Notes under the pieces: model-generated | Told to the model about the DNA's origin: nothing | The model's input: the letters and a program-made list of their open reading frames with translations, nothing else | Databases searched by the model: none | Part shown: piece after piece, positions 8,641 through 23,035 of the stretch | How positions within the stretch are numbered: the first letter of the stretch is position 1 | How the letters are laid out: every line of letters starts with the position of its first letter | Virus record (IMG/VR): IMGVR_UViG_3300032954_000003 | Span: 18,847-82,846 of that record | Reading direction: 5' to 3' (one strand) | From: a virus | Taxonomy: Duplodnaviria; Heunggongvirae; Uroviricota; Caudoviricetes | Length of the DNA: 64,000 bases | Made by a program: the position numbers and the translations under genes

Positions 8641-8641
8641 A

Positions 8642-8716: not shown

Positions 8717-8718
8717 AA

Positions 8719-8790: not shown

Positions 8791-8800
8791 GTTAGCGAGT

Positions 8801-8989: not shown

Positions 8990-8991
8990 AG

Positions 8992-9064
8992 TGGACGATT
9001 CAGGGATCGAACCTGAGACCTCTGCTTTGTAAGAGCAGTGCTCTACCTGCTGAGCTAATCGTCC
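8992..9064 (-). tRNA. tRNA-Val (anticodon TAC)
   Basis: Cloverleaf GGACGAT...ATCGTCC, anticodon loop CTTACAA, T-loop TTCGATC. Confidence 0.75.
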
Positions 9065-9369
9065 GTGGGTGCTGGCTTCCAGCTTACGATAGCACCTAGC
9101 CGTACGTACACAAAACCATCCAACACTGAAATACCCCAACCGTCGTCATATGCGATTACGCACCCTGGTTTGAGCTTATCCTCTAAACCGCCGTTCCAAG
9201 GATCGAATGCGTATGGCAACTCTCCTACTGCGAGAACAATAGCTGTACGGAGTGTTCGAGTACGTATTAGAGGTGACGGCTGTTGGTCGTCTGGTATCTC
9301 GGTCGGCAATGGAATTGCTACCAGAAAACCCGCCATTGGTTGCATTGGTGGCTCTGTATTTACATCCAT
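9055..9369 (-). CDS. hypothetical protein (104 aa); ATG begins 4 nt after the tRNA-Met 3' end
   Basis: Protein-like composition (GCVIAYDDGWGISVLDGFVYV). The last 3 codons overlap the 5' end of tRNA-Val(TAC). Confidence 0.35.
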   Translation of the reverse strand: MDVNTEPPMQPMAGFLVAIPLPTEIPDDQQPSPLIRTRTLRTAIVLAVGELPYAFDPWNGGLEDKLKPGCVIAYDDGWGISVLDGFVYVRLGAIVSWKPAPTDD

Positions 9370-9373
9370 GAGA

Positions 9374-9445
9374 TGGGCGGTCTTGGATTCGAACCAAGGT
9401 CCAACACGTTATGAGCATGCGGCTCTACCCCTGAGCTAACCGCCC
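9374..9445 (-). tRNA. tRNA-Met (anticodon CAT; elongator or Ile-lysidine type not distinguishable)
   Basis: Acceptor GGGCGGT pairs with ACCGCCC (G1-C72, so not an initiator). Anticodon loop CTCATAA. Confidence 0.7.
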
Positions 9446-9603
9446 CTATATATGTCACGCTGTCTAAAGTTAGCACTACATCCGTAGCGGTTACATCTTG
9501 CGTAAATGTAGCCGTGGCGCTCCAGAAAGCGCCAATTATGGCCTACAACGTAGCACCTGCTATGGCTCCACGCAAGTCTAATGTAATGAACTATTGCCAA
9601 GAG

Positions 9604-9675
9604 TGGGCGATGGTGGATTCGAACCACCGACCCCTACGTTGTCACCGTAGTGCTCTCCCGCTGAGCTAATCGCCC
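9604..9675 (-). tRNA. tRNA-Val (anticodon GAC)
   Basis: Cloverleaf GGGCGAT...ATCGCCC, anticodon loop GTGACAA. Confidence 0.65.
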
Positions 9676-9769
9676 GTGGTATTGCGCCACGCATTCGTTG
9701 CAATAGCACCTGCTACAAAGCTTAGCGTGAGCAGATGATCTACATCAATGCGGTTACTTGTTATGGTTT

Positions 9770-9952
9770 CTACCTCTTTATGGTTTCTACCTCTTGTGCC
9801 GCCTCAGCTAACATTGTACCGGCTATCTGGGCGCACTTGTGCACTTCACCACTAGGTAGCCCAGCTTCGGACAAGTCCCTATCAAGGGTACTCTCTGGAT
9901 GCTTGACTAGTCTTTCGAAGATCCGTCTAAAACACTGATGGTAACTGTCCAT
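9770..9952 (-). CDS. hypothetical small protein (60 aa); ATG begins 2 nt after the tRNA-Ile 3' end
   Basis: ORF MDSYHQCFRRIFERLVKH...; it contains a 17-bp tandem duplication. Confidence 0.3.
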   Translation of the reverse strand: MDSYHQCFRRIFERLVKHPESTLDRDLSEAGLPSGEVHKCAQIAGTMLAEAAQEVETIKR

Positions 9953-9955
9953 AAT

Positions 9956-10030
9956 GGGCGATGAAGGAATTGAACCTTCGACCTTTTCCTTATCAGAGAA
10001 ACGCTCTAACCAAACTGAGCTAATCGCCCA
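9956..10030 (-). tRNA. tRNA-Ile (anticodon GAT)
   Basis: Cloverleaf GGGCGAT...ATCGCCC, anticodon loop CTGATAA, T-loop TTCAATT. Confidence 0.75.
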
Positions 10031-10032
10031 AC

Positions 10033-10105
10033 GCGCCTGGGCGGATTCGAACCGCCGATCTCATGCTCCGGAGGCATGCGCTCTTTCCTCTAAGCTACAG
10101 GCGCA
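10033..10105 (-). tRNA. tRNA-Arg (anticodon CCG)
   Basis: Acceptor GCGCCTG pairs with CAGGCGC, anticodon loop CTCCGGA, discriminator G. Confidence 0.7.
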
Positions 10106-10181
10106 GGTGTGTTGGTCAGTCTAGAACCGTTTTGGGAGGTCTAGTCAAGTAGAGAAGTGCTGTCAAGGGTAGACGAGTCAA

Positions 10182-10254
10182 TGGGACGTCAGGGATTTGA
10201 ACCCCTGGTCGGCCGGTTAAGAGCCGGCTACTCTACCAATTGAGTTAACGTCCC
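10182..10254 (-). tRNA. tRNA-Lys (anticodon CTT)
   Basis: Acceptor GGGACGT pairs with ACGTCCC, anticodon loop CTCTTAA, T-loop TTCAAAT. Confidence 0.75.
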
Positions 10255-10415: not shown

Positions 10416-11148
10416 TTAGCTAATCGGTTCCCATTCTACAAGCTTGTATCGGCCGTAACCTTGCGACCTAGCAGCGCCGATACCCTGCTGACAGCCAGTT
10501 AGCCATATCATCGCCCACTCTTTCTGAGTGAGGTCTTGGTCGGTAATAACTGTGAAGTCGATGGTTACATCTCGGGCAACCTCCTCGTACTGGATGCCGT
10601 TGCCACGAAAAGTATGGATGAAGCGCTGTTCTACAGAATCAGGCTCTGTTACGCCAAGCGGCAAGATGTCCTCGACTATGAACACATGCTCGGCCATGAA
10701 GGACAGTATTCCCTTATTGGTCTCGCCCCAACCGCGCTTCTTAAGCTTCCCAGCCGCTACAGCAATGCTGGCAGCCTCCTTCAGAGCGGCTTTTAGCTGT
10801 CGTCCCTCGATGTACAGCTCACCATCGTGTGGACCTTCTTGCACACGCTTGAACCCGTTGAGATGTCGTAGCTTGTCTGCTATTTCGGCAGCCTCTTCAG
10901 CACCTATTTCGCGCTCATCCATGATCTGAGCTACTTGGTCACGGATTAAGTCACCTGAGTCTGCAAGCTTTGACTTGAGCCATCCTTCGGCGACACGCGG
11001 ATCGGATGGAACGCCACCTGCGATGGCATCTACTTGGATTTGACCTCGAAACTGGTGCGGAAACGCCTCACGCTCGTACTTTGCGAACGGGAACAGGTTC
11101 TTCTTCGTTGGCTTACCGTTGGCTTTAGCGGTTGCTGTTTTGGTTGGC
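10416..11148 (-). CDS. hypothetical protein
   Basis: The ATG (MPTKTATAKANGK) has an AAGGAAC RBS; the 270-aa track ORF is an upstream extension. No recognisable motif. Confidence 0.5.
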
Positions 11149-11155
11149 ATGTTCC

Positions 11156-11635
11156 TTACCTTAGAGCTTTCTTGATGGAATCTACCTGCGCACCTGTGAT
11201 GTTCTCGTTGATACCTACGCAGGTCCATACACCGAGTGCTGGTGGCGCATCGTCGGTTCTCTCAATGTCCGCCATCCAGCTCTCGGTTCGCTCGGCGTCA
11301 CTAACAGTTACTAAAAGGATCTCCTTTCGATCTGGATGGTTAGCGACATAACCAGGATCAGTTTCAGCTTCGTACGTATCAACTTCCTCGGGCTCTACCA
11401 CACGCATCCAAGACGAATAGACAGTCGCAACCTTTCGAGCTTTTAGCTCTAGGATCATTCGAACAATTGCCTGAGGGCGCAGTTCCTTTGGTAGGTCTAA
11501 CAAGACAATCGTTGTGTGGCTATCAGCGTCCTGTAAGAGAGCAATTGGCTCCCAGTCCTCCTCGGGTTCCGTAAAGGATTCTCCAACTTCGGTTGCACAA
11601 GCCTTTACATGGTCAACGAATGCACGGTAGTCCAT
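11156..11635 (-). CDS. hypothetical acidic protein
   Basis: 159-aa ORF immediately upstream of, and co-directional with, 10416..11148. Confidence 0.45.
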   Translation of the reverse strand: MDYRAFVDHVKACATEVGESFTEPEEDWEPIALLQDADSHTTIVLLDLPKELRPQAIVRMILELKARKVATVYSSWMRVVEPEEVDTYEAETDPGYVANHPDRKEILLVTVSDAERTESWMADIERTDDAPPALGVWTCVGINENITGAQVDSIKKALR

Positions 11636-11733
11636 TTAGGACGGGACGTTATCCGATTCAACTTGTCTAGGCAACCCAATAAAACGCGCAAATTGCGGGC
11701 GTGCTGCTAGCCAGCTAGAAGTTTGGAGGCTGT

Positions 11734-11991
11734 ATGCCTAATCGCGGTGTAGCACCTCAGCCACCGAATTACCGTTCCTCAGATAGCGATAAGAGACGTT
11801 GTGGCACTTGTCGCATGTATGACCGAGGACTTTGCTGGGGTTTTGGAAACAAGCACGTAGACGCCCACTACGTCTGCGATAACTGGGCCGCTGAAAAGCA
11901 GGAGGCCATTACATTGAGTGTGTCTCCTACGCTGGAGCTGCGTGATCTTTGTTGTTGCGCTGCCTGTATTGCACACCGGAACGTCCGCTAA
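11734..11991 (+). CDS. hypothetical Cys-rich small protein
   Basis: GGAGG RBS. Preceded by the conserved TTGCGG-CTAGCCAGCTAG motif. 85 aa with several Cys. Confidence 0.5.
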   Translation: MPNRGVAPQPPNYRSSDSDKRRCGTCRMYDRGLCWGFGNKHVDAHYVCDNWAAEKQEAITLSVSPTLELRDLCCCAACIAHRNVR

Positions 11992-12010
11992 TTGAGGTAG
12001 TCTTATCGCA

Positions 12011-12808
12011 GTGTCGCAGGTTGAGAGAACATGCAAGTGTGAGGGCTGCACCCGCAATTGTGTGGCAAAGGACTTGTGTAGTTTGCACTATCAGCGATTA
12101 TCTCGCTATGGAAGCACGGAATTGCCGCAACGGGTCATCATCTGTCGTATCGCTCAATGTGGACGTCCCGCAAAAGCGAAGGGTTTGTGTGCCGCACATT
12201 ATCAGCGACAAAGAGAAGGGCGAATAGTCGATTCGCCAGTTAAGGCCAAGAAGGAGAGACTCGCTACCTGCAAGGTTATTGGGTGTCAACGTAAAGCTGC
12301 TGCACGCGACTTATGCAAGGCTCATTACAGGCGGTGGACCAAAAGCGGTGACGTTGAAGCAAATAGACCGATTGCATTAAAGCAGAAGCAACCCTCTGTA
12401 TTTTGCAAGGTAGAAGGGTGTCAGCGAAAGAGTTCATCACACAATGGCTATTGCAAGATGCACGGTTATCGAATAAGACGCTATGGCAATCCTGGCTCTG
12501 TTTATCCGCTACACGCACAAAAGGGAACTGGCACTGTGCGCGATGGCTACAGGTTTATGAGCATTCAAAGCGAGAATGGTTCCCGTCTGCGCGTAGCTGA
12601 GCATCGTCTAGTTATGGAAGCATTTCTAAATAGACCACTGCGACCGTTTGAGACAGTTCATCATATCAACGGTATTCGGGATGACAACCGTATAGAGAAT
12701 CTCGAATTATGGACTCATGGTCATCCTCGTGGTCAACGACCAGAGGACTTGGTGGCGTGGGTTGTTGAGCAGTATCCCGAGTTAGTGCGAGCAGCGCTGA
12801 ATCCTTAG
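12011..12808 (+). CDS. HNH homing endonuclease with four N-terminal Cys/His zinc-binding repeats
   Basis: C-terminal AEHRLVME...VHHINGIRDDNRIENLELW is the HNH_3-type motif. Four repeats of CxGCxR....LCxxHYxR. GTG start with a GAGGT RBS. Confidence 0.75.
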   Translation: MSQVERTCKCEGCTRNCVAKDLCSLHYQRLSRYGSTELPQRVIICRIAQCGRPAKAKGLCAAHYQRQREGRIVDSPVKAKKERLATCKVIGCQRKAAARDLCKAHYRRWTKSGDVEANRPIALKQKQPSVFCKVEGCQRKSSSHNGYCKMHGYRIRRYGNPGSVYPLHAQKGTGTVRDGYRFMSIQSENGSRLRVAEHRLVMEAFLNRPLRPFETVHHINGIRDDNRIENLELWTHGHPRGQRPEDLVAWVVEQYPELVRAALNP

Positions 12809-12836
12809 CTCGCATTCGTGCGAGAGGAGGATTTGG

Positions 12837-13394
12837 ATGAGGCAGCCGTACGATCCGGCCTTTTACAACACTGCCGAATGGCGCACTTTCCGTAAGCACA
12901 AGTTGCTTAGCGTGGGCTTTCATTGTGAGCGGTGTGACGCAGACTTGCGTTCTGTACCAGCGGAGGTACACCATGTCATTTATGAGCGATTTGGCGGGGA
13001 AGAGCGTCTTGCTGATGTTGAAGCGCTTTGTAGCCGTTGTCACGATGAGGTTGAGCTAGTGAAGGCTGGTGACAAAGCGATTCGTGCCCAGCTAGAAATA
13101 GACAGCAAGATTCAACGTGCCACTGAATTAGACGTGCGAGCTGACGAATTACGGCATGAAATAAGAGAGAATCTTGACATCTTAGAACGCGAAGCTGAAA
13201 AGAAACAGCGCATTGGACTGGATGTGTTTATCAGGCATCTTCTAGAACAAGAAGTTGCAGGGCGCCAAGTTTTGGGGATGGGAGGCTTGCCAGCCCCTAG
13301 CCAAGAGTTACTTGAACAGATGCTTGAACGTACACATCGCGCACGAGAACTTTTAGTCGAGAAATACTCTCCTCCTGCTAGTGAAGCAGCCTAA
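12837..13394 (+). CDS. HNH endonuclease with C-terminal coiled coil
   Basis: HCERC...EVHHVIYERFGGEE...CSRCH pattern (H-N-H with two CxxC pairs). GGAGGA RBS. Confidence 0.7.
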   Translation: MRQPYDPAFYNTAEWRTFRKHKLLSVGFHCERCDADLRSVPAEVHHVIYERFGGEERLADVEALCSRCHDEVELVKAGDKAIRAQLEIDSKIQRATELDVRADELRHEIRENLDILEREAEKKQRIGLDVFIRHLLEQEVAGRQVLGMGGLPAPSQELLEQMLERTHRARELLVEKYSPPASEAA

Positions 13395-13408
13395 CCACGA
13401 GGTGGTAA

Positions 13409-14794
13409 ATGACAACAGCTATGACTATTGAGCGGGATGAGGTACTTTCCTACATAAGAGATATGCGTGCATTGCTCGATGAGGTAGATGAAGCGGAGAA
13501 GCAAATGCGTGATAAGTTGTCATCGGCAGATATGAATGATTTGCCGGATTCAGCATTTGCTTACATTGAGCCAGGCGGCAAAAAGGATGCAAGCGGTAAG
13601 ACCACCCCACGAAGTTTGCGGCACTTTCCAATCCATGATGTTGCACATGTGCGAAATGCGCTAGCTCGTGCTTCACAGTCACCGTTTGGTGAAAAGGCCA
13701 TGCCAAAGATTCGTGCTGCCGCTAAGAAGTTTGGCATAGAAGTTAGCGATAAAAATGGTGCCGAGGATGAGAAGAACGAGGAGCGCGAGCTGAACATGGA
13801 TGGCCATGGCGAACAGACAATGCAGTGCGACGAATGCCATGGTACTGGGAGCATCCAAAAGGAAGAAGAGTGCCCGAATTGCGGTGGTAGCGGCGCACTT
13901 GTGAGTGGGGAAATGGAAGTTGGTGGACCACCCGAGCGTTCTGCCGACGACAGTTTGGAGCTACGTATGCATCGCGCAGCTGAGATGGAGGGCATGTTTG
14001 AGCGTCGTGGTGTTGAAGGCTTCGAAATGCGTTCCACATCCGATGGTCATGTGCGCTTTACAGGTTACGCATCGACCACAGAGACACCATATGAGATTAG
14101 TGATTTTCGAGAGACAGTTGCGCGTGGTGCGTTCAAGCGTACGCTAGGTGAAGACCCGGATGTTCGTCTGCTTATCAACCATGGCATGGGTGGTCAGCTT
14201 CCTCTTGCGCGTACAAAGTCAGGGACACTAACACTCAGCGAAGATGCGCGCGGGTTGCGTGTAGATGCGGACCTTGATCCAAATGACCCAGACGTTCGTG
14301 CATTACTGCCGAAGATGCGGCGCGGCGACGTAGATGAAATGTCCTTTGCCTTCAGAGCTACTCAGCAAGAATGGAACGAAGATTACACAGAGCGTCTTAT
14401 CCGTGAGTGTTCAATCCATCGTGGCGATGTAAGCATTGTTACCACAGGCGCTAACCCAGACACTACTGGCGAGATTACAGCGAGCATCCGGTCAGATGAT
14501 GGTGCATTCGAGCTACGTGTTGGTAAACAGATCAGCGGTGCCAACGAGTCACGCCTGAAGAAGGTGCTCAATCGCCTGGCAAGTATCGACGAGGAAGCAG
14601 ACGCCGGCCAAGAGGAACTAGCCGACATCATCGGTGTACCAAATCCAGACAAAGACGGCAAAGACAACGACAATGGTGCCGTTTACGACGTCAAAGCTTT
14701 GGCAAGCGAGCCACATACTGTTCTACCAAGATCAGCACCTAGCTACCTTGAGATGGCTAAGGCACGACGGGCCAAACTGCTAGGGGCGTCATAA
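13409..14794 (+). CDS. prohead protease (HK97/U35-S78 family) with N-terminal extension and internal Zn-ribbon
   Basis: Protease core FTGYASTTETPYEISDFRETVARGAFKRTL...LLINHGMGGQLPLARTKSGTLTLSEDARGLRVDADL is the U35 signature. Internal CDECHGTG...CPNCGGSG. Confidence 0.75.
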   Translation: MTTAMTIERDEVLSYIRDMRALLDEVDEAEKQMRDKLSSADMNDLPDSAFAYIEPGGKKDASGKTTPRSLRHFPIHDVAHVRNALARASQSPFGEKAMPKIRAAAKKFGIEVSDKNGAEDEKNEERELNMDGHGEQTMQCDECHGTGSIQKEEECPNCGGSGALVSGEMEVGGPPERSADDSLELRMHRAAEMEGMFERRGVEGFEMRSTSDGHVRFTGYASTTETPYEISDFRETVARGAFKRTLGEDPDVRLLINHGMGGQLPLARTKSGTLTLSEDARGLRVDADLDPNDPDVRALLPKMRRGDVDEMSFAFRATQQEWNEDYTERLIRECSIHRGDVSIVTTGANPDTTGEITASIRSDDGAFELRVGKQISGANESRLKKVLNRLASIDEEADAGQEELADIIGVPNPDKDGKDNDNGAVYDVKALASEPHTVLPRSAPSYLEMAKARRAKLLGAS

Positions 14795-15975
14795 TGTCTG
14801 TGGAGCTAGAGACTGCCGACCACGTTTCAGATGTAATTGAACGCGCAGAGCATGATGCTCATACAGCAGTACGTGAACCGCTCGTATATACAGCAGGAGA
14901 CATCGAAGGATCATTCTACGCTGATCTATACCGGCGTGAACGCAAACAAGATACAGAAGCACGGGAACGTCTAGAACGTCATGAGAAGCAGATGTTGGAC
15001 ATTCCTTCTCGCCATGAGACGCGCACGTTCTACGGTGCTAGGTATGAGTTTCGTGCGCCGCTAAATAAGACGGCTGGACGTGGTGAAGAGTTCACGCCAC
15101 CACTGTGGCTAAATGAGCTGTTTGCTACCGCACGCCGTCCTGGACAAGTGCTTCAGCGACTAGCTCCGACCTTTGATCTGCCAAAGGGCGCAGGAAGTAT
15201 TCACCTGCCACGTATTACACAGGGTACTGTTGTCGAACCGACGATTGCAGCTACACCTGAGCCATCTCAGGATGTCGAAACAGCTGAAGTCGAATCACCC
15301 GTAGCAACCTTTTCAGGGATTTCGGACTGGGCTATACAAGCACTTGAGCAGTCACCGGCCGGCGCGCATCTGGACTGGGTTGTGTTCCGGGATATGACTG
15401 AGTCACTTGATGCTGAAATTGAGCGTGAGCTGCTTGTCGGTTCTGGCACTAACGAACACTTCTTTGGTCTGCTGGAACTTGCAGGTACGAATAGCATTGA
15501 ATACACAAGTGAAGAACCGACAGGAACTGCAATGTTTCCCTTTGTTGGTCGTGCGCTCGCACAGATTGGTGTAAAACGCCGCTTGCCACCCGAAATCATC
15601 ATGATGAATACGTCGCGGTTCTTCTGGCTATCAACGTCTGAGGATCTGGCAAACAGGCCGCTGCTCCTAGAAGACTACGAGGAGTCAACATTTCCGATTG
15701 CAGGGCTGTCTGGGGTCGGCGTATATCCAAACAACGCCATCCCCAATACGCTGACTAAAACTGAAAACCAAGATGCCATTATCTGTTGTCGTCCCTCGGA
15801 CTTCGTATTGTTTGCTTCAGAACCATATGTGACTGTAAAAGAGGATGTGCTCTCGGGAACACTGCAAGTGCGCTTTGAGCTGCATCGCTATGTAGCTGCC
15901 ATCCTGGGACGTTTCCCTAGCGGTATCAGCAAGGTTACGGGCACTGGGATGGTCGTCCAGGAAGGATTCAAGTAA
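14794..15975 (+). CDS. major capsid protein (HK97 fold), paralog 1
   Basis: Follows the prohead protease. Roughly 95-aa delta-like N-terminus. GRGEEFTPPLWL and C-terminal SGTLQVRFELHRYVAAILG are shared with the ORF at 17097. Confidence 0.7.
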   Translation: MSVELETADHVSDVIERAEHDAHTAVREPLVYTAGDIEGSFYADLYRRERKQDTEARERLERHEKQMLDIPSRHETRTFYGARYEFRAPLNKTAGRGEEFTPPLWLNELFATARRPGQVLQRLAPTFDLPKGAGSIHLPRITQGTVVEPTIAATPEPSQDVETAEVESPVATFSGISDWAIQALEQSPAGAHLDWVVFRDMTESLDAEIERELLVGSGTNEHFFGLLELAGTNSIEYTSEEPTGTAMFPFVGRALAQIGVKRRLPPEIIMMNTSRFFWLSTSEDLANRPLLLEDYEESTFPIAGLSGVGVYPNNAIPNTLTKTENQDAIICCRPSDFVLFASEPYVTVKEDVLSGTLQVRFELHRYVAAILGRFPSGISKVTGTGMVVQEGFK

Positions 15976-16271
15976 TGGCTGTAATCGGCGACAAAGTCAA
16001 TAAAACTCAGACCGCCGGTAAAGTCAAAGTCAAAGAAACTTCGACAGAAGTGCTGAAAGCGAACGAAAACCGTAGTGGATCGCAGTATGTCAACGCTTCA
16101 GCATTTCCCGTTTACCTTCAACTTGGTAAAGCCGCTGTTGCCGAAGAAGGGATCTTCTTAGTCAAGGAAGGTGGATCGTGGAATGGAATGATCGGTCCAC
16201 TAGTCTGGACTGGCAAAGTATTTGGTATTGCAGTCGGAGGAGAAGCACCCCTCACAGTCATTGAGGTTTAG
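15975..16271 (+). CDS. hypothetical small head-module protein
   Basis: AGGAAGGA RBS; 98 aa, Gly/Val-rich. Confidence 0.5.
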   Translation: MAVIGDKVNKTQTAGKVKVKETSTEVLKANENRSGSQYVNASAFPVYLQLGKAAVAEEGIFLVKEGGSWNGMIGPLVWTGKVFGIAVGGEAPLTVIEV

Positions 16272-17012
16272 ATGAGCACCTACGCAGAAACGGTGCTTGC
16301 CACTTCAGGGCTTGTGGCATTTTGGCGCCTGAATGAGAGTTCAGGTGAAGCTAAAGACAGCAAGGGTACACATAACGGTACATACGCCGGAGGTGTTACG
16401 CTTAGTCAAGCAGGTCCCATTCCTAGCGACCCAACTAGCAAATCTGTAGCATTCAACGGCACGAATGCGCGAGTAACTGTTCCCGCTTCCGCCGAATTGC
16501 AACCTGCTGAAGTAACAGTTGAGGCATGGATATTCCCGACATCTTTAGTCGGCCACTCTGGTGTCGTTACCTCGAACAAATTCTCCACCAAGGTTGGTTA
16601 CGAGCTAGGCTTTGGTGTCAGTGAAGCAGGCGAAAACAAAACGCTTGAGTTTGGAAGCTATAACGGGACTTGGCACGTAGCCTTCGACACTACAGTAGAA
16701 CTCGCACCACAGTGGTACTACGTTGTAGGTGTTTATAACGGTTCCAACGTTATCTTCTACCGCAATGGGATTGAACTTCGGAAAACAGCCTTTGCTGGAC
16801 CGCTTGAATATAACGCCGCAGAAGAATTCTTGATTGCAGTAGACCATACTAAGTCGCATTTTTTCGCTGGCCGGCTTTCAGAAGTAGCAATCTATAACAC
16901 TGCGCTTTCGTCAGCAACGATTAGCCAACATTGGCTTGCAGCGCAGTCTGGATTGACCCAAAGTCTGGAAGTCGGTGGCTGGTTGCCAGCAGGTCGCGTA
17001 CCTACTTTTTGA
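16272..17012 (+). CDS. LamG-like (concanavalin A-like lectin/glucanase jelly-roll) domain protein
   Basis: Pattern AFWRLNESSG...AFNGTNARVTVP...VEAWIFP...YNGS..FYRNG...FFAGRLSEVAIYNTALS is typical of Laminin_G_3. Confidence 0.6.
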   Translation: MSTYAETVLATSGLVAFWRLNESSGEAKDSKGTHNGTYAGGVTLSQAGPIPSDPTSKSVAFNGTNARVTVPASAELQPAEVTVEAWIFPTSLVGHSGVVTSNKFSTKVGYELGFGVSEAGENKTLEFGSYNGTWHVAFDTTVELAPQWYYVVGVYNGSNVIFYRNGIELRKTAFAGPLEYNAAEEFLIAVDHTKSHFFAGRLSEVAIYNTALSSATISQHWLAAQSGLTQSLEVGGWLPAGRVPTF

Positions 17013-17096
17013 AGTAAACACTTACCCGCGTTTCTGTCCCTCTAAGACGGACACACTCGGGGATATAACCAAACGATGTCCCCGAAAGGAGGGGCC

Positions 17097-18830
17097 ATGC
17101 CAGAGACAGTAACGCTGCTCGACGAGCTGCGCCAGCGTCGTGAGACCATCGGAAAGAATTGGGATGATCTCATTGATAGGCGTGAGACTGAACGAGCTGA
17201 GTACGAGAAACGTACTGCTGACTTCAAGTCATTGAAGGATGAGTTCGAAGCTAAGGACAGTCCAACTGACGAGGAGCGCGATGCGTTCAAGGCAGCCGAA
17301 AAGGCGCATATGGTTACAACCGATGCGTACAACTTGGCTGAGGACGAGTTCCGCTCCGCATGCGAAGACTTCGAATCGGATCTTGGTCCTCTCAATGATC
17401 GAATCAAGCGTCAAGAGGAGAAGGCGGAACGTCGTGCGGCTGCTGAGAAGGCGGCAATTAGCGATGACTCCGACCCTGCTGGCAGTCTTCATGTCACAGA
17501 GCCTTACACGTACCGCAAAGACAATGCTAATGACTATTCCTTCTACAAGGATATGCTTTCAACGGAGCCATCGATCCGAGGTCTAGTCTCCGGTATCCGT
17601 GGCTTCAACTACCAGGAAGCTAGAGAACGCATCGACCGTCACTCAGAAGAGATGAATGACGTTATGAAGAAGCGCGATGCGGAACGGATCAAAGCTGCTG
17701 AACAGCAGGTTGATGAAGCAGAGATGCAGTTCCGGTCAAGCTTCCCCACTGGGATGCTAAAGGCGGATCTCCGTGGTGCGCTGGAAGACAATCCCTTCGA
17801 ACGCCGTGCTAACCCTTCCCGTGTCGCGGGCCAGGGTGGCGAATTCGTTCCGCCCTTGTGGCTAGTCGAGGATGACTGGATTCCGTTCCTACGTGCCGGC
17901 CGTGTTATCGCACCTCTGTGCCGTAATATGCCCGTCCCGCCAGGTACGGATACGATCAAACTCCCGAAGGTGAAACTTGGTACCGAAGTTGCACCCCAGT
18001 TGATGGACAATGCTGGCGTTGCATCACGCGATATCGAAACAACTTTCGTAGAAGCTGCCGTCAAGACACTTGCCGGTCAGGAGGATGTTGCCATCCAGCT
18101 GATCGAGCAGTCACCGGGTCAGGTATTTGACACGGTAGTCCAGACGGATCTTCTTGCTGACTACAACCTGAAGGTAGACCGTAACGTCTCCTTCGGTGAA
18201 GGTCTGAACGTTACCCAGCTAAACGCCGGTACGATCAAGGGTCTGTACCCAACGACAAACTGGGAAGGTAAGAAGAACGAATCAACCTCAGCAGCTACAG
18301 GGCAAACGTTCCTAGCTTCCTTGAACTGCAACTGGTCATGGATTGCCAAGGAACGTTTCAACGTCCAGAACGTTCACCACGTTATCCATCCGCGTCGTGG
18401 TGCATGGGCTGCGTCAGTAACAGATTCATCCTCAGAAGCAGGGCGGTTGCTGTTCAATGCAACAGACTTCCCTAACTTCAACACGGCAGGTTTGTTCACC
18501 GGCCAAACACCGGCCGAGGGGTATGCGTTTACGACACCGCTTGGACCGAATGTCTACATTACGGCGAACATCTCAACCGAAGATAACGGGAAAGGTGAAA
18601 AAAAATCAGGTGAAAGCCACGATTACGCTCTGACTGCAAAGTTTGATGATGTGTGGTTCTTTGAGTCTGATCTTCGTACACGCGTACTCCCTGAGGTCGT
18701 ATCTGGCACGCTCCAGATTCGCTTCCAGGTGTATGCATACGTGGCGCTGTTGGTTCGTTACGGCCCGTCTATCGCAATTGCGGTAGGGAAAACATTCGAA
18801 GAACCCAAACTGGGTGGCTTCACCTTCTAA
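17097..18830 (+). CDS. capsid protein paralog 2 (HK97 fold) with about 220-aa N-terminal coiled-coil extension
   Basis: AAAGGAGGGG RBS precedes the ATG at 17097. GQGGEFVPPLWL, PGTDTIKLPKV and C-terminal SGTLQIRFQVYAYVALLV align with 14794..15975. Confidence 0.65.
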   Translation: MPETVTLLDELRQRRETIGKNWDDLIDRRETERAEYEKRTADFKSLKDEFEAKDSPTDEERDAFKAAEKAHMVTTDAYNLAEDEFRSACEDFESDLGPLNDRIKRQEEKAERRAAAEKAAISDDSDPAGSLHVTEPYTYRKDNANDYSFYKDMLSTEPSIRGLVSGIRGFNYQEARERIDRHSEEMNDVMKKRDAERIKAAEQQVDEAEMQFRSSFPTGMLKADLRGALEDNPFERRANPSRVAGQGGEFVPPLWLVEDDWIPFLRAGRVIAPLCRNMPVPPGTDTIKLPKVKLGTEVAPQLMDNAGVASRDIETTFVEAAVKTLAGQEDVAIQLIEQSPGQVFDTVVQTDLLADYNLKVDRNVSFGEGLNVTQLNAGTIKGLYPTTNWEGKKNESTSAATGQTFLASLNCNWSWIAKERFNVQNVHHVIHPRRGAWAASVTDSSSEAGRLLFNATDFPNFNTAGLFTGQTPAEGYAFTTPLGPNVYITANISTEDNGKGEKKSGESHDYALTAKFDDVWFFESDLRTRVLPEVVSGTLQIRFQVYAYVALLVRYGPSIAIAVGKTFEEPKLGGFTF

Positions 18831-18857
18831 GGCGAACGCCAGAAAGGAACGACAAAG

Positions 18858-19511
18858 ATGGCTGATCTAACATCTGGCCGTTACGCCAACCAGAGCCCGC
18901 TCTGGGGTTTGTTCGGGAACCAGGTAAATGCAGCTCAGGGTGATGTGCCGGCGATCCATAATGCTTCGCCGGGTGTCGGTGTTGAAGACGGTGCGCCAAT
19001 GGTTACTAAAAAGCTAACATTGGTTCCCGTCCCGTGCCCCGAAGGTGTTGAAATCTCAACAGTCAAGATTTTCGGGGGAGCAACCGAATCCGAAACGGCG
19101 ACCCATGCGTGGGCGGCAATCTACTCAGGTGTGGCGATAAAAGAAGAAGAACTCAAGGCCGTTCTTCAAGCGCAGAGTAAAGATAACACGACCTACGAAA
19201 TGAAAAAAACCGAAACGGTAACGTTTACACTGGAAAAACCAGTGCTTGTTACCAACGCGGTTGCACCCAATGGGTACATCTATGTAGGTGTGTATCTCGT
19301 AGGTACCAAAGTTGGTACATACGCTGCGATGAAATCGCCAGCTAAAGCACTGTTCAAAGCAGTGTCTGGTAAAAAAGTGTTCCCATGGTTCACTAACGGT
19401 CCAATCTCAACCGTGAGCAAAATTACAGAAGGCGGTACAGCTCCTAAAGAAGCGCCTGTCGAATCCGAATTGGCGTATGCTGAACCTGTGCCGCTGCTGC
19501 TCCTACAGTAA
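18858..19511 (+). CDS. probable capsid decoration/Ig-like protein, paralog A
   Basis: AAAGGAA RBS. Shares PNGYIYVGVYLVG and THAWAAIYSG with the ORF at 19928. Confidence 0.5.
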   Translation: MADLTSGRYANQSPLWGLFGNQVNAAQGDVPAIHNASPGVGVEDGAPMVTKKLTLVPVPCPEGVEISTVKIFGGATESETATHAWAAIYSGVAIKEEELKAVLQAQSKDNTTYEMKKTETVTFTLEKPVLVTNAVAPNGYIYVGVYLVGTKVGTYAAMKSPAKALFKAVSGKKVFPWFTNGPISTVSKITEGGTAPKEAPVESELAYAEPVPLLLLQ

Positions 19512-19514
19512 ACG

Positions 19515-19781
19515 GTGAAACGTCGAGGTTACCTCGGCCGCGAAGGTTATTGTGAGGCGTGCGGTGAATCCATGCCGGATGGCCCAGATGTCTGTCTGGG
19601 GTGGATTCCCGGCGTCTCACAAGCGTGCTGTGGTCATGGCAATACGGACCTAGCCTTTGTGTATCTTGGTAAGTCAGACGGTGCATATGTGCTACTAAAA
19701 GCGGAGTTAGCGCTTGAGTTCTTTGCACTTGTTAAACAAGGCCAGTGGGTTGATTGTGAAGCGCCAGCGACGCGAATTTGA
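19515..19781 (+). CDS. hypothetical Cys-rich small protein (start uncertain)
   Basis: ORF with Cys pairs but no convincing RBS. Confidence 0.25.
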   Translation: MKRRGYLGREGYCEACGESMPDGPDVCLGWIPGVSQACCGHGNTDLAFVYLGKSDGAYVLLKAELALEFFALVKQGQWVDCEAPATRI

Positions 19782-19927
19782 GACCACAACGGCTGTAGAT
19801 GAATTAGAACAGGCTGTGCCCGAACGTCCCAGACGTAAAGGTCCAAAGCCACGGTGTGAGCATGGTAACCCGCCTCAGCGCTGTCTTGAGTGCCGCGAGG
19901 AGGCTCAATGGCTGATAGGAGACAGTG

Positions 19928-20716
19928 ATGGCGATTACTAAAAATGAACGTGTGTTTGACCTAGCGCTTGGTGCCCAGTACAGTATTCATGAAATTGCGA
20001 ACATCATGGGCATCAATGAACCTGAAGTTATTGCCATCTTGGCAAACCTTAATAATGGTCCTTCGACACAGACCTCGCCAGCGGCAACCGCTGAAACGCC
20101 GGTGAGTGGCACGCTTGGGCTGTTGATGGGTAACAACCGCCAGCTTGGTAACACAACCCGTCCAGCACGGTCTAACTTCGACTACCTTGGACTAGCTGGC
20201 GCTAAAGACGAAAAACCCACAGCGACCACCAAATTGTCATCTAACGTGCCTATTGCCGTCAAGCCTGGTGACATATTCACCAAGGTAGGGCTGCTATGTG
20301 GTGAAACTGCTGGTGGCACAATGACTCACCAGATTGCCGCACTCTATGAAGGTAAGGGAACCAAACCAGTCCTTCTACAGCAATCAAAAGATACAACAAA
20401 TGCTGCCATTGCCGCTAACACGCTGGTGTTCTGGGAACTCGAAAAAACAGTCGAAGTAACTGAAGCTAATTGTCCGAATGGCTTTATCTACGCTCAGATA
20501 ACCATTGTGGCTACAACCATCCCAACTTGCTACAACCAAGCTACTGAAGCCAAGCTGAGCGTTATTGGTACACCAGTCAAAGGCGCAGCTAAGGAAACAC
20601 CCCAGTTCATCTCAGCAACCTCTAAAGCCGCTTCTGAAGAAGGCATCAAAGCTGAAGCTAAACTGGAAAACGAAGTCACTGCTGCTGCTAAAGCCCCATG
20701 CATTGTTCTGATCTAA
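19928..20716 (+). CDS. probable capsid decoration/Ig-like protein, paralog B
   Basis: AGGAGA RBS. Paralog of 18858..19511 (PNGFIYAQITIVA, THQIAALYEG). Confidence 0.5.
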   Translation: MAITKNERVFDLALGAQYSIHEIANIMGINEPEVIAILANLNNGPSTQTSPAATAETPVSGTLGLLMGNNRQLGNTTRPARSNFDYLGLAGAKDEKPTATTKLSSNVPIAVKPGDIFTKVGLLCGETAGGTMTHQIAALYEGKGTKPVLLQQSKDTTNAAIAANTLVFWELEKTVEVTEANCPNGFIYAQITIVATTIPTCYNQATEAKLSVIGTPVKGAAKETPQFISATSKAASEEGIKAEAKLENEVTAAAKAPCIVLI

Positions 20717-21076
20717 ATGGCCGGCAGCATAACAGTTGGTGGCATGGCCGCTGGACTCCTAGTAGGAGAAATCCGCATTGGTCCTGCCACGATGGTTGGC
20801 AAATCGGCTATCTCAGAGATTTTCAACCTAGAACTGACGTCTAATGTAGACAAGGTGGTTGTGGTCCCTAATGAAGCGGTCGCATTTTGCGTGGTCTTCA
20901 CCTTTTCAGGGACAGAACCGACTGAACTCAAAGTTCGCACGAACCTTGATAACGCTGATACGGGTTTTCCGATCCCAGCATCTGGGTTCTTTGCGGCGCC
21001 GCTGCTGTCTACTGTAACTGAACTCAAGTTCAAGGCTGCAACACCGCCTGCGGTGTTCCAGTTGGTGTTTGTATGA
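20717..21076 (+). CDS. hypothetical structural protein
   Basis: Clean 119-aa ORF, tightly packed, overlaps the next gene (ATGA). Confidence 0.5.
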   Translation: MAGSITVGGMAAGLLVGEIRIGPATMVGKSAISEIFNLELTSNVDKVVVVPNEAVAFCVVFTFSGTEPTELKVRTNLDNADTGFPIPASGFFAAPLLSTVTELKFKAATPPAVFQLVFV

Positions 21077-21492
21077 GTTCACTAGATAAGGCATGGGAGA
21101 AGAAAGTCGCTGAACTGCTGACTGGTAAGGTTGCCTCACTCAACCGACCAGCGGCTAATCTCTGGATTGCTCTCACTACAACTGTGCCGACGCGGGTGGC
21201 CAACGGCGCGGCTGCAACCTATACGGGCTATGCCCGGTTTGAGATTGAAGCAGCCAAGCTCAACATTACCGAAGGCACGGCGTCAGAACCCACACTCGTC
21301 AAGAACGCCGAAGAAGTGAAGTCGCCGGAATGTACGGGTGGCGAATCGACTATCAAGGGCATCGAGCTGTGGACTGCCGAATCGGGCGGTGAACGTGTGG
21401 CATGGGGTGTACCGACAGAAGAACTGACAGTTACGCCAACTCACATGCCATACGTGTTTGCCGCAGAAGCGCTGGTCTGGCAGTTCAACTAA
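21073..21492 (+). CDS. hypothetical structural protein
   Basis: 139-aa ORF with start coupled to the previous gene. Confidence 0.5.
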   Translation: MSSLDKAWEKKVAELLTGKVASLNRPAANLWIALTTTVPTRVANGAAATYTGYARFEIEAAKLNITEGTASEPTLVKNAEEVKSPECTGGESTIKGIELWTAESGGERVAWGVPTEELTVTPTHMPYVFAAEALVWQFN

Positions 21493-21496
21493 CGTT

Positions 21497-23035
21497 ATGG
21501 CATTTCCAAGTATCACCGAAAATGTCACTGTTGCGAGTAAGCCGTTCTTCGAAGAAATCTTCTCGCAAACTGAAACGCTGACCAACGTTACGCGTGGACG
21601 CATTGGAACCCTTCCTCCCTACAACCTCGACCCCACGGGAACCGTAACGGATACAGGAAAGCTCCAGGAAGCCCTCACTGCGGCACACACAGCTGGTGGC
21701 GGAACAATATATCTGCCGGAAGGCACCTTCAAGAAGAACTACGAACTGGTCATCCCCTACAACGTCCGCCTCGTCGGCGCTGGGCGCAACGCCACCATCA
21801 TTCAGGACACGACAGACCTCGGCGCCTCGCACTCTGCCGCGCGCACCGAAGAAGAATCCAACTCCCTGAGCTATCCCGTAGTCGAACACCTGTCCTTCAA
21901 GGGACCGGGCTCGACCACCTTCTCCGCCGGCACGCAGCAGGCGGAAATGCACGGGCTCCTGCTGAAGTCAGACGGCGAAGCAAACCGCGTCAACGTCTAC
22001 GGATACGCCTCGGGCATCAGCTTCAACGGTAACCACCAGGCTGTCGAACACTGTCGCCTCTACGGGAACTACTACGGGCTCTACTGGCGCGACGGCGGAG
22101 AAAACCAGGGCAACCAGACGGTCATCGACGTTGTGTGCGCCCGTAACAACCACTCTGGCGTTCGCGTGCACAAGACCAACACGATCGACTCCTGCACCAT
22201 CATCGAACTGCACAACTTTGGCAACCCCTACGGGATGTCCAAGGGCAACGAGGCCGGCACCTCGCGCGGCTTCATCACCGACAGTACGTGCACGATCTAC
22301 TTCGAGGAATGCGGCAACGGCGGCATCTTCGACGAAACCGGCCAGACCATCAAGGACAACACCTTCAACAACTTCGCGGTCAGCTTTAACGCCTCCAACC
22401 GCATCGGCGGCAAAGCCCACGAATGGACGGTCACCTGCGGCGAACTAATAGGCAACACCTTCACCGGCGACCTGAACGGCGTCGAAGCCCTCGAAAAAGG
22501 CGTCTTCAACTGCACCAAGGCATACGGCAATACCTTCTTCACGGGCGAAACCTACCTCCAGGAAATGCGCGAAAAACGGCTCATCTTCGCGGATTCAAAC
22601 GACGTGCAGGGCGTAACCTTCTACACCCAGTACGGCGGCCGCTGCCAGATGTACAAGGTCGGTGGCGGCGCGGCCACGCCGGAACTCGGCGACCTGCTCT
22701 ACTGGGCCTCTTCACTGGGCATGTGGGGCGCTGCCAAGACCGAAGGCGAAGGCGGCTCGAACATCCCCGTGGGGTTCCTGATGGCCTGGGGCCTGGAATC
22801 ATCGCTGAACCACTGGGCACCCCTGCTCGTCGAGGGACCTGTCAAGGCCAAGACGCACTCGGAAGCAGCCGAAGTCAAGGCCCTCACCCACGCGGAAATC
22901 ACCGCCGGCATCGTCAAGGCCGACACCGCGAATCGCGGCAAGATCACCTCGGGGGGAGCCGAAGGTCTCACAGTTGGCTACGGCAAGCCCTCAGGCTCCG
23001 AACACGCCGAAGTCCACGCGCGCCTCGGTGGCTGA
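21497..23035 (+). CDS. right-handed beta-helix pectate-lyase-like protein (putative tail spike/depolymerase), GC-rich C-terminal two-thirds
   Basis: GGGTIYLPEGTF... opening is typical of the pectate_lyase_3/GH28-like fold. The ATG at 21497 follows the stop of the previous gene. GC rises to about 65% from roughly 21700. Confidence 0.6.
   Translation: MAFPSITENVTVASKPFFEEIFSQTETLTNVTRGRIGTLPPYNLDPTGTVTDTGKLQEALTAAHTAGGGTIYLPEGTFKKNYELVIPYNVRLVGAGRNATIIQDTTDLGASHSAARTEEESNSLSYPVVEHLSFKGPGSTTFSAGTQQAEMHGLLLKSDGEANRVNVYGYASGISFNGNHQAVEHCRLYGNYYGLYWRDGGENQGNQTVIDVVCARNNHSGVRVHKTNTIDSCTIIELHNFGNPYGMSKGNEAGTSRGFITDSTCTIYFEECGNGGIFDETGQTIKDNTFNNFAVSFNASNRIGGKAHEWTVTCGELIGNTFTGDLNGVEALEKGVFNCTKAYGNTFFTGETYLQEMREKRLIFADSNDVQGVTFYTQYGGRCQMYKVGGGAATPELGDLLYWASSLGMWGAAKTEGEGGSNIPVGFLMAWGLESSLNHWAPLLVEGPVKAKTHSEAAEVKALTHAEITAGIVKADTANRGKITSGGAEGLTVGYGKPSGSEHAEVHARLGG

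What the first reader, a model, noticed from the sequence alone, without database searches (positions are those of the whole stretch)
14794..18830. Two diverged HK97-fold capsid protein paralogs in one head module, separated by a LamG-like protein
ORF 14794..15975 (393 aa) and ORF 17097..18830 (about 577 aa) share collinear motifs: G(R/Q)G(E/G)EF(T/V)PPLWL, P(K/P)G...I(H/K)LP(R/K), AIQ(A/L)(L/I)EQSP, and C-terminal SGTLQ(V/I)RF(E/Q)...YVA(A/L). The second has an extra coiled-coil N-terminus of about 220 aa. A LamG-like jelly-roll protein and a 98-aa protein lie between them. By analogy with T4 gp23/gp24 this may be a hexamer versus vertex-pentamer specialization. Alternatively it could be a scaffold-fused minor capsid protein.
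Basis: seen in the sequence. Interest (0 to 1): 0.55.

Follow-up and report, generated by a model that had tools for sequence, protein, structure and literature searches.

The report
Two capsid-protein paralogs, probable hexon/penton pair
An uncultivated ~109-kb contractile-tailed phage, like about 30 related metagenomic phage lineages, carries two diverged copies of the HK97-type capsid shell gene side by side, most likely one for the flat six-fold tiles and one for the five-fold corners, an arrangement proven so far only in T4-like phages and in one mycobacteriophage.

Summary
ORF 14794-15975 (MCP-A, 393 aa) and ORF 17097-18830 (MCP-B, 577 aa) are homologs (27% identity, E 8e-28). Both give confident AlphaFold models that match HK97 gp5. 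A 98-aa ORF and a Laminin_G_3 protein lie between them.

The pair is not an accident of this genome. The order protease, then A, then B recurs in every related metagenomic phage locus that could be read through, and in about 30 lineages in all. In contrast, 79 actinobacterial prophages and the cultured mycobacteriophage relatives have a single copy.

B keeps and enlarges the ancestral N-terminal helical scaffolding (delta) domain. It has the strongest ribosome-binding site in the module, codon usage like the sheath and tube genes, and the more conserved core. A has lost about 65 aa of that domain. Its start always overlaps the protease stop codon, it uses codons like low-copy genes, and it evolves faster.

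Best reading (confidence about 0.6): B builds the hexamers and supplies the scaffold, and A builds the 11 pentamers. This would be convergent with T4 gp23/gp24 and like the MCPh/MCPp pair of phage Jabs. The placement is inferred and no virion data exist.

It is a new member of a known but rare kind, of moderate interest. One side lead: A-type genes also occur as the only capsid gene in satellite-like chromosomal islands.

The parts
13409..14794 (+). Prohead maturation protease (461 aa). The S78 domain spans aa 207-356, after a long N-terminal extension that contains a CXXCXGXG zinc-finger-like motif.
   Evidence: Pfam Peptidase_S78 E 1.5e-32; phrog_80 head maturation protease E 7e-46. Its stop codon overlaps the MCP-A start as TAATG.
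14794..15975 (+). MCP-A (393 aa), the short HK97-fold paralog and candidate penton (vertex) protein. Aa 1 to about 95 are a truncated remnant of the delta domain that keeps the conserved EPxxY..SYFxDL..ERLxRH block. Aa about 96-393 are the HK97 core.
   Evidence: Pfam Phage_capsid E 2.6e-11, 43.9 bits against a cut-off of 24.2; phrog_2263. AF2 pLDDT 84.7, with Foldseek hits to HK97, D3 and others at E 3e-15. It has a weak Shine-Dalgarno sequence and its start overlaps the protease stop, here and in L001, L003, L008, L010, L092 and the P0164 contig. CAI is 0.58, the same level as TerL, portal and protease.
15975..16271 (+). 98-aa protein of unknown function. Its start overlaps the MCP-A stop (TAATG).
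   Evidence: No Pfam or PHROG match. Orthologs sit directly after the A gene in L009 (58% identity) and L001 (37%) but are absent from L002/3, L008 and L010.
16272..17012 (+). LamG / concanavalin-A-like protein (246 aa). It is a lineage-specific accessory insertion between the two capsid genes.
   Evidence: Pfam Laminin_G_3 E 1.2e-23; C-terminal similarity to phrog_8510 'virion structural protein'. tblastn finds no homolog in any related locus.
17013..17096 (+). Intergenic spacer with a strong Shine-Dalgarno sequence (AGGAGG at 17087-17092) in front of MCP-B.
   Evidence: Read directly from the sequence. B orthologs in L001, L003, L008 and L010 likewise follow a spacer with AAGGAG, AGGAGG, GAGGAG or AAGGAAG; spacers of about 160-220 nt in L003, L008, L010, L092 and the P0164 contig.
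17097..17831 (+). MCP-B N-terminal delta (scaffolding) domain, aa 1 to about 245. It consists of long helices at 7-52, 58-121 and 172-215.
   Evidence: AF2 secondary structure. Residues 5-128 align with the N-terminal domains of single-copy relatives and are missing from A. The cluster J mycobacteriophage capsid proteins align with B from residue 50 onward.
17832..18830 (+). MCP-B HK97-fold core, aa about 246-577, the candidate hexon (major shell) protein.
   Evidence: phrog_2263 E 1e-28. A profile of its orthologs hits HK97 gp5 in the PDB by sequence at E 1e-7. AF2 pLDDT 85.9, Foldseek hit to HK97 at E 1e-13 with target TM up to 0.82. The core is about 30 aa longer than in A or in single-copy relatives. 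ENC 47.9 and CAI 0.65, close to sheath and tube. The core is more conserved than A's in the same genomes.

Best explanation
The head module encodes two homologous HK97-fold shell proteins that have divided the work of building one icosahedral or prolate capsid.

MCP-B (577 aa) is the major protein. Its roughly 245-aa N-terminal helical delta domain acts as the built-in scaffold, and no separate scaffold gene is present. It forms the hexamers. MCP-A (393 aa) has lost most of the delta domain. It is made in small amounts by translational coupling to the prohead protease and forms the 11 pentameric vertices. It would be recruited into the procapsid by B's scaffold and by the conserved remnant of its own delta domain. 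The S78 protease encoded just upstream then removes the N-terminal domains, and the shell matures.

Shown here: homology, the HK97 fold of both proteins, conservation of the pair and its gene order, the domain asymmetry, the expression-signal asymmetry and the rate asymmetry. Inferred: which paralog sits where, the stoichiometry (about 13:1 if T=13, as expected for a ~109-kb genome) and the proteolytic processing.
For: (1) Both proteins have the HK97 fold and belong to one family. BLASTP E 8e-28; both match phrog_2263; AF2 plus Foldseek; profile hits to HK97 gp5.

(2) The pair has been kept for a long time. The order protease, A, B was read directly in the window, L001, L002/3, L008, L009, L010, L092 and the P0164 contig. 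L011 shows the A C-terminus followed by B. Orthologs are 38-65% identical while A against B is about 26%. Pairwise distances of A and B are correlated (Mantel r 0.50, 0 of 2000 permutations).

(3) Single-copy relatives show the ancestral state. All 79 actinobacterial prophage loci and the two mycobacteriophages whose annotation was read, Porcelain and prophiGD43A-5, have one capsid gene; each of the 61 matching mycobacteriophage records has a single matching place. Their N-terminal domain has a median of 173 aa, against 221 in the B clade (251 in this window) and 107 in the A clade.

(4) Expression signals. The A start overlaps the protease stop and has a weak Shine-Dalgarno sequence in all six lineages checked. 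B always follows a spacer with a strong one. CAI and ENC put B near sheath and tube and A near TerL, portal and protease.

(5) In the same 23 genomes the B core is more conserved than the A core (p-distance 0.35 against 0.48), as expected for the abundant subunit that must fit many quasi-equivalent positions.

(6) Precedent. In T4, gp23 forms hexons and gp24 forms pentons (PMC13185644). In phage Jabs, the cryo-EM structure shows a 594-aa MCPh whose N-terminal 266 residues are absent from the density forming hexons, and a short MCPp forming pentons (10.64898/2026.07.24.740622). That is the same long/short asymmetry.

(7) Weak hint: the A model superposes best on the HK97 penton chain G (target TM 0.77, against 0.70 for chain F and 0.67 for chain A). 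The B model superposes best on hexamer chain F (0.82).
Against: There are no virion, proteomic or structural data for this phage, so every argument about position is indirect.

A-clade proteins also occur as the only capsid gene in two satellite-like islands (L006 and L091). Proteins of this type may therefore be able to build whole shells and need not be restricted to pentons.

A's core has about the ancestral length (295 against 300 aa). It is B that gained about 30 aa, so a 'reduced axial domain' like that of Jabs MCPp is not clearly seen.

The codon-usage differences are modest. Some A orthologs (P0164, P0178, P0185; 480-499 aa) keep a long N-terminus.

A and B are each closer to single-copy relatives (32-34%) than to each other (26%). 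A second capsid gene acquired by transfer, rather than by tandem duplication, is therefore not excluded.
Confidence: 0.6

Rival explanations
1. Both paralogs are abundant and co-assemble across the shell, either as hetero-hexamers or as two classes of hexamers at different lattice positions of a large T-number or prolate capsid. There would be no dedicated penton protein.
For: Both are conserved, full-length and HK97-fold. They have been co-inherited. A keeps the conserved block of the delta domain that single-copy relatives share. A-type proteins stand alone in the satellite-like islands, so they can presumably form hexamers.
Against: The asymmetry in ribosome-binding site, translational coupling and codon usage argues for unequal amounts. 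I know of no HK97-lineage capsid with hetero-hexamers (my own knowledge, not a search result). The two solved dual-MCP systems, T4 and Jabs, are hexon/penton splits (PMC13185644; 10.64898/2026.07.24.740622).
Confidence: 0.15
2. A is a conditionally used or conflict-related capsid gene that was acquired horizontally and is exchanged with phage satellites. It could alter capsid size, resist or exploit satellite hijacking, or give an alternative capsid form. On this reading it is not a constitutive vertex protein.
For: A-clade proteins are the sole capsid gene, next to an S78 protease, a primase/helicase and either an integrase or a TerS, in islands L006 and L091 that lack TerL, portal and a B gene in the stretch read. 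The L006 protein is 51% identical to the A protein of dual-MCP phage L010. A and B are each closer to single-copy relatives than to each other.
Against: The position of A, between the protease and B with an overlapping start, is invariant across lineages only 38-65% identical. That fits an integral, vertically inherited assembly gene, as does the correlation of A and B distances.
Confidence: 0.1
3. The roles are reversed. A is the main shell protein, and B is a scaffold-fused minor or vertex protein, or chiefly a scaffold.
For: B carries the scaffold domain. A alone passes the Pfam Phage_capsid threshold.
Against: B has the ancestral full architecture seen in single-copy capsid proteins. It also has the strongest Shine-Dalgarno sequence, higher CAI and a slower-evolving core. 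A is coupled to a low-copy enzyme. In Jabs the long paralog is the hexon protein. In L009 a homing group I intron sits in B, and such introns typically target the most conserved essential genes.
Confidence: 0.08

Closest known systems
Bacteriophage T4 gp23 (hexon) / gp24 (vertex penton)
   Same: Two homologous HK97-fold shell proteins are encoded in one head module of a large myovirus. The shorter paralog has the shorter pro-region. Both would be matured by the prohead protease. The proposed division of labour is hexamers versus the 11 pentamers.
   Different: It is a different sequence family: there is no Pfam Gp23 (PF07068) match, and both proteins here belong to the Phage_capsid/phrog_2263 lineage. 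The duplication is therefore independent. T4 uses a separate scaffolding core (gp22 and others), whereas here the scaffold is fused to B as a delta domain. Placement in T4 is proven; here it is inferred.
Mycobacterium abscessus siphophage Jabs MCPh (ORF72, 594 aa) / MCPp (ORF73, 257 aa), bioRxiv 10.64898/2026.07.24.740622
   Same: The genes are adjacent. The long paralog has an N-terminal maturation domain of roughly 250-266 aa that is absent from the mature shell, and the short paralog has little or none of it. There is no separate scaffold. The relatives are actinobacterial phages. Sequence identity between the paralogs is low (18% in Jabs, 27% here).
   Different: The gene order is opposite: here the short paralog comes first and is coupled to the protease. 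A still keeps about 95 N-terminal residues and a core of ancestral size. This phage is a myovirus of about 109 kb, not a T=9 siphovirus. No cysteine network is implied. Homology to the Jabs proteins could not be tested because PQ001584 is not in the collection.
HK97 gp5 and the single capsid proteins of cluster J and related mycobacteriophages (Omega, Porcelain, Courthouse, Bipper, Typha, prophiGD43A-5)
   Same: These are the closest cultured sequence relatives (28-36% identity). They share the layout of S78 protease followed by a capsid protein with an N-terminal delta domain, and the same fold.
   Different: They have one capsid gene that must fill both hexamer and pentamer positions. The window's lineage has two genes that have diverged in opposite directions.

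Membership tests
HK97-type major capsid protein (Pfam PF05065 Phage_capsid; HK97 fold) | Sequence-profile match to the family | tested here: met
   A: PF05065 E 2.6e-11, 43.9 bits against a cut-off of 24.2. B: its own sequence gets no Pfam hit, but it matches phrog_2263 'major head protein' at E 1e-28. Many B orthologs carry a precomputed PF05065 hit, and the ortholog profile hits HK97 gp5 chains at E 1e-7.
HK97-type major capsid protein (Pfam PF05065 Phage_capsid; HK97 fold) | HK97 fold (N-arm, E-loop, spine helix, P- and A-domains) | tested here: met
   AF2 models have pLDDT 84.7 (A) and 85.9 (B). Foldseek against the PDB puts HK97 gp5, D3, R4C, Cozz, Muddy and others at the top, with E 1e-13 to 3e-15 and target TM 0.65-0.82.
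HK97-type major capsid protein (Pfam PF05065 Phage_capsid; HK97 fold) | N-terminal delta (scaffolding) domain, removed by a prohead protease encoded just upstream | tested here: inconclusive
   The S78 protease gene lies directly upstream. B has a helical N-terminal domain of about 245 aa, and A has a truncated one of about 95 aa. Cleavage itself cannot be tested in silico.
HK97-type major capsid protein (Pfam PF05065 Phage_capsid; HK97 fold) | Lys-Asn isopeptide cross-linking (HK97 K169/N356/E363). This is a feature of some members only. | not tested
   No invariant lysine appears among the conserved columns of either alignment, but no residue-level structural mapping was done.
T4-type capsid proteins gp23/gp24 (Pfam PF07068 Gp23) | Sequence membership in the Gp23 family | tested here: not met
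   No PF07068 hit for either protein at E up to 0.1. The resemblance is functional and architectural only.
Dual-MCP capsids with a penton-specific paralog (T4, Jabs) | Two homologous HK97-fold shell genes in one head module, conserved together | tested here: met
Dual-MCP capsids with a penton-specific paralog (T4, Jabs) | Asymmetry: the long paralog has the full pro/scaffold region, and the short paralog has a reduced one | tested here: met
   Median residues before the invariant PPxW proline: B 221 (251 in this window), A 107 (102 in this window), single-copy relatives 173.
Dual-MCP capsids with a penton-specific paralog (T4, Jabs) | One paralog found only in pentons and the other only in hexons of the virion | not testable with these tools
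   This needs cryo-EM or quantitative virion proteomics. The only indirect support is from ribosome-binding sites, coupling, codon usage and rates.
Dual-MCP capsids with a penton-specific paralog (T4, Jabs) | Penton paralog with a smaller axial domain and a bent spine helix (Jabs MCPp) | tested here: inconclusive
   A lacks a hairpin of about 7-14 aa that B and single-copy relatives have (B 461-477). Overall, though, A's core has the ancestral length and B's is enlarged. Helix bending cannot be read from the output available.

The most novel reading that the evidence does not exclude
The A-type gene may be a portable 'vertex/curvature' capsid module that moves between dual-MCP phages and satellite-like chromosomal islands. 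On this reading, islands such as L006 and L091 carry only an A-clade capsid gene and an S78 protease (plus replication genes, an integrase or a TerS, and a fibre). They would parasitise dual-MCP helper phages by supplying their own penton or shell protein, which combines with helper B hexamers, or replaces them, to build a smaller capsid. A gene split between hexon and penton would thus create a new handle for capsid-size hijacking.
Probability: 0.1. Interest if true: 0.75.

Novelty: new member of a known kind. Interest (0 to 1): 0.45.

Why it matters
Nearly all tailed phages build hexamers and pentamers from one protein. A 2026 review calls separate penton and hexon genes rare (PMC13185644), and the Jabs preprint calls its hexon/penton pair unprecedented among icosahedral phages.

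This window, with about 30 related metagenomic lineages, shows that a dual-MCP head module has arisen independently of T4. It arose inside the classical HK97 lineage (delta domain plus S78 protease) and has been stably kept in a diverse clade, probably of actinobacterial phages, whose tail-gene sets differ between lineages.

It offers a natural series: single-copy relatives, then the A and B clades. That series could be used to study how a quasi-equivalent protein splits into curvature specialists, and how scaffold function is partitioned between the copies.

There is also a practical consequence. Annotation pipelines label both genes 'major capsid protein', so capsid-gene phylogenies and capsid-based taxonomy will mix paralogs unless the A and B clades are told apart.

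Tried and rejected
- Megablast of the whole head module against 50,697 phage records found no match, so there is no close cultured relative.
- A pattern scan of IMG/VR with MCP-A peptides found nothing. The B query worked.
- The promoter and terminator scan of 11500-24500 gave counts equal to the shuffled expectation, so it says nothing about separate transcription of A and B.
- I tried to compare directly with the Jabs capsid proteins (PQ001584) and with an Arthrobacter cluster AP phage annotated with a 'major capsid hexamer protein' (RazzB, PV876951). Neither record is in the collection.
- A literature search for 'major capsid pentamer protein' found nothing.
- A sequence search of the PDB found no solved structure closer than HK97 gp5.
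- I considered and rejected that one copy is a pseudogene or an assembly artefact. Both are full-length, conserved across lineages only 38-65% identical, and fold confidently.
- I rejected the idea that the LamG protein is an integral part of the pair, because no relative has it.
- I rejected my own early statement that A has a clearly reduced A-domain. Against single-copy relatives, A's core length is ancestral and B's is expanded.
- The preference of the A model for the HK97 penton chain is too small to carry weight.

Full report
**Context.** The window belongs to a phage contig of 108,815 bp; the database proteins identical to both capsid ORFs come from that contig. It encodes a large terminase (1224-3731), a portal (6122-8461), a tail sheath (24907-26373) and a tail tube (26385-26807), so it is a contractile-tailed phage. 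It also carries 21 tRNA genes. No cultured phage is similar at the DNA level.

**The observation.** The head module reads as follows:
- S78 prohead protease, 13409-14794
- MCP-A, 14794-15975 (393 aa)
- a 98-aa ORF, 15975-16271
- a Laminin_G_3 protein, 16272-17012
- MCP-B, 17097-18830 (577 aa)

No third copy exists in the window. The start of B at 17097 is preferred over 17076, because AGGAGG lies 4 nt upstream and the public protein is 577 aa.

**Both proteins have the HK97 fold.** A passes the Pfam Phage_capsid threshold. B does not hit Pfam on its own, but it matches the same PHROG (phrog_2263, major head protein) more strongly than A does. Profiles built from 90 B-type and 113 A-type homologs both hit HK97 gp5 in the PDB by sequence. 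AlphaFold2 models from those alignments are confident (pLDDT 85.9 and 84.7). Foldseek puts HK97 gp5 and a long list of phage capsid proteins at the top for both (E 1e-13 to 3e-15, target TM up to 0.82).

**The pair is conserved, and single copy is the ancestral state.** I read the order protease, A, B directly in IMG/VR loci L001-L003 and in metagenomic loci L008, L009, L010 and L092 and the P0164 contig. L011 shows the end of A followed by B. In the two homolog tables, 22 further A clusters and B clusters have the same longest-contig length to the base, which means they share a contig. That gives about 30 lineages in which orthologs are 38-65% identical while A against B stays near 26%.

By contrast, 79 prophage loci in Streptomyces, Nocardia, Mycobacterium, Actinomadura and other Actinomycetota have one capsid gene within ±6 kb. 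Their capsid proteins are at most 41% identical to B. The closest cultured relatives are cluster J and related mycobacteriophages. They have one match per genome, and in the two records whose annotation was read (Porcelain, prophiGD43A-5) it is annotated as the major capsid protein and lies directly after the protease. A neighbour-joining tree separates an A clade and a B clade, with the single-copy proteins between them.

A WhiB gene in L092 and the taxonomy of all relatives point to actinobacterial hosts. The host of this 52%-GC phage is unknown.

**How the two copies differ.** I counted residues before the invariant proline of the PPxW motif.

| Group | N-terminal region, median aa | Core, median aa |
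|---|---|---|
| Single-copy relatives | 173 | 300 |
| B clade | 221 (251 in this window) | 329 |
| A clade | 107 (102 in this window) | 295 |

The first ~125 residues of B form two very long helices. They align with the N-terminal domains of single-copy relatives and are simply missing from A. A keeps only the conserved distal block (EPxxY..SYFxDL..ERLxRH). So B retained and enlarged the HK97-style delta (scaffolding) domain and gained about 30 core residues in A-domain loops. A shed most of the scaffold and kept a core of ancestral size. There is no separate scaffold gene between the protease and the capsid genes.

**Expression signals.** In the window and in L001, L003, L008, L010, L092 and the P0164 contig, the A start codon overlaps the protease stop (TAATG or ATGA), with at best a weak Shine-Dalgarno sequence in those whose upstream sequence was read (the window, L001, L003, L008 and L010). 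B always follows a spacer (84 nt to the 17097 start in the window, about 130 nt in L001, about 160-220 nt in L003, L008, L010, L092 and the P0164 contig), which carries a strong Shine-Dalgarno sequence wherever the sequence was read. Within this window the codon-usage values are:

| Gene | ENC | CAI (sheath+tube reference) |
|---|---|---|
| MCP-B | 47.9 | 0.65 |
| MCP-A | 52.4 | 0.58 |
| TerL | 56.5 | 0.55 |
| portal | 56.6 | 0.60 |
| protease | 47.6 | 0.57 |
| sheath | 47.9 | 0.75 |
| tube | 48.8 | 0.72 |

The differences are modest but consistent. A looks like a low-copy protein made together with the protease, and B looks like an abundant one.

**Evolutionary rates.** Across the same 23 paired genomes the B core is more conserved than the A core (mean p-distance 0.35 against 0.48). 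The two distance matrices are correlated (r 0.50; 0 of 2000 permutations reach it). This fits co-inheritance and stronger constraint on B. In L009 the B gene is interrupted exactly at the invariant GQGG(Y/E)F|VPPLW motif by a group I intron (Rfam RF00028, 63.5 bits) with a LAGLIDADG-like ORF. Homing elements typically sit in the most conserved essential genes.

**Interpretation.** The most economical model is a hexon/penton split. B would form the hexamers and provide the scaffold. A would form the 11 pentamers, and the S78 protease would then remove the N-terminal domains.

Two solved systems give direct precedent. T4 uses gp23 for hexons and gp24 for pentons (reviewed in PMC13185644). In the T=9 siphophage Jabs, a 594-aa MCPh lacking its first 266 residues in the density forms the 80 hexons, and a short MCPp forms the 11 pentons (10.64898/2026.07.24.740622). 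The SEA-PHAGES vocabulary also includes 'major capsid hexamer protein' (PMC13014141).

A ~109-kb genome suggests T≈13 and an A:B ratio of about 1:13. This rests on the capsid sizes of phages with similar genome lengths and was not tested. I put this model at about 0.6.

**Reasons for caution.** Nothing here locates either protein in a particle. A's core is not visibly reduced relative to the ancestor. Some A orthologs keep long N-termini. A and B are each closer to single-copy proteins (32-34%) than to each other (26%), so capture of a second capsid gene by transfer is not excluded.

Most notably, A-clade proteins occur as the sole capsid gene in two small islands in high-GC bacterial contigs (L006 and L091). 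Each has a primase/helicase and an S78 protease. L006 also has a tail-fibre-like gene and an integrase, and L091 has a TerS. Both islands lie beside a GGDEF/GAF/HD gene, and neither shows TerL, portal or a B gene in the stretch read. The L006 protein is 51% identical to the A protein of dual-MCP phage L010.

This could mean that A-type proteins can build shells alone. It could also mean that satellites have borrowed the vertex gene of their helpers. Both readings keep the rival models alive, which are mixed capsomers (0.15), a conflict-related or conditional role for A (0.10) and reversed roles (0.08).

**Comparison and novelty.** The proteins are members of the HK97/Phage_capsid family and are not members of the T4 Gp23 family. 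The duplication is therefore independent of T4's. Whether it shares an origin with the Jabs pair could not be tested. The kind of system, a penton-specialised capsid paralog, is known but rare. This is a new, uncultivated and apparently widespread member of it. It has a fused scaffold on the presumed hexon paralog only, and the short paralog comes first and is coupled to the protease. Interest is moderate (0.45). The satellite connection is the most novel reading left open (probability about 0.1).

Noticed in passing
window 18858-19511 and 19925-20716: There is a second paralog pair in the head module. The 217-aa and 263-aa proteins right after MCP-B are 32% identical (E 5e-17). L010 also has both copies, each orthologous to one window copy; L001, L003 and L009 have one. 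Homologs also follow the single capsid gene in several actinobacterial prophages (L013, L014, L018, L019, L029, L034, L066). Their CAI of 0.71 is among the highest of the 22 genes scored (only sheath, tube, p525 and one other ORF are slightly higher), which suggests abundant proteins, possibly decoration or cement proteins that may themselves be specialised. No Pfam or PHROG match.
   Followed up: partly
L006 4900-17100 and L091 3500-15300: These are satellite-like islands in high-GC bacterial contigs (71% and 68% GC), both next to a GGDEF/GAF/HD gene. They carry a primase/helicase, an A-clade capsid gene as the only capsid gene, and an S78 protease downstream of it, which is the reverse of the phage order. 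L006 also has a tail-fibre/collar protein and an integrase; L091 has a small terminase. No TerL, portal or B-type gene is in view. The L006 capsid protein is 51% identical to the A paralog of dual-MCP phage L010.
   Followed up: partly
L009 10248-12847: The MCP-B ortholog is split at the invariant GQGGYF|VPPLW motif by a group I intron (Rfam RF00028, 63.5 bits, E 1.7e-15, at 10981-11224). This is followed by a reverse-strand 182-aa ORF with a LAGLIDADG-like motif (11242-11790). Exon 2 resumes at about 11840.
   Followed up: yes
window 21458-23035: The tailspike-like ORF (525 aa; PHROG tail spike hits on aa 48-121) has a strikingly different composition from its neighbours: GC3 0.77 and ENC 34, against GC3 of about 0.45-0.55 elsewhere. 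This suggests recent horizontal acquisition. A long alternative-frame ORF (22423-23277) overlaps it, probably as a by-product of the GC-rich composition.
   Followed up: no
window 13409-14794: The prohead protease is unusually long (461 aa). The S78 domain spans aa 207-356 only. The N-terminal 200 aa contain a DnaJ-type CXXCXGXG zinc-finger-like motif (aa 133-162) and a weak DUF6582 match. Protease orthologs in relatives range from 300 to 540 aa.
   Followed up: no
window 8641-10254 and 39696-43798: There are two minus-strand tRNA clusters (8 and 13 genes, 21 in all). The first is wedged between the portal gene and the rest of the head module. Together with two minus-strand ORFs and two HNH/zinc-rich ORFs (12011-12808, with a five-fold repeated C..C..H motif, and 12837-13394), it separates the portal from the protease by about 5 kb.
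   Followed up: no
window 1224-3731 and 6122-8461: The terminase large subunit (835 aa) and the portal (779 aa) are both much longer than their counterparts in related loci (about 430-540 aa and 400-440 aa). Their PHROG matches fall in separated stretches, which suggests inserted domains or inteins.
   Followed up: no
window 21073-21492: A 139-aa protein matches Pfam Gp80 (podophage GP4 fiber I protein, E 2.2e-14) in a myovirus context, just upstream of the tailspike-like gene.
   Followed up: no
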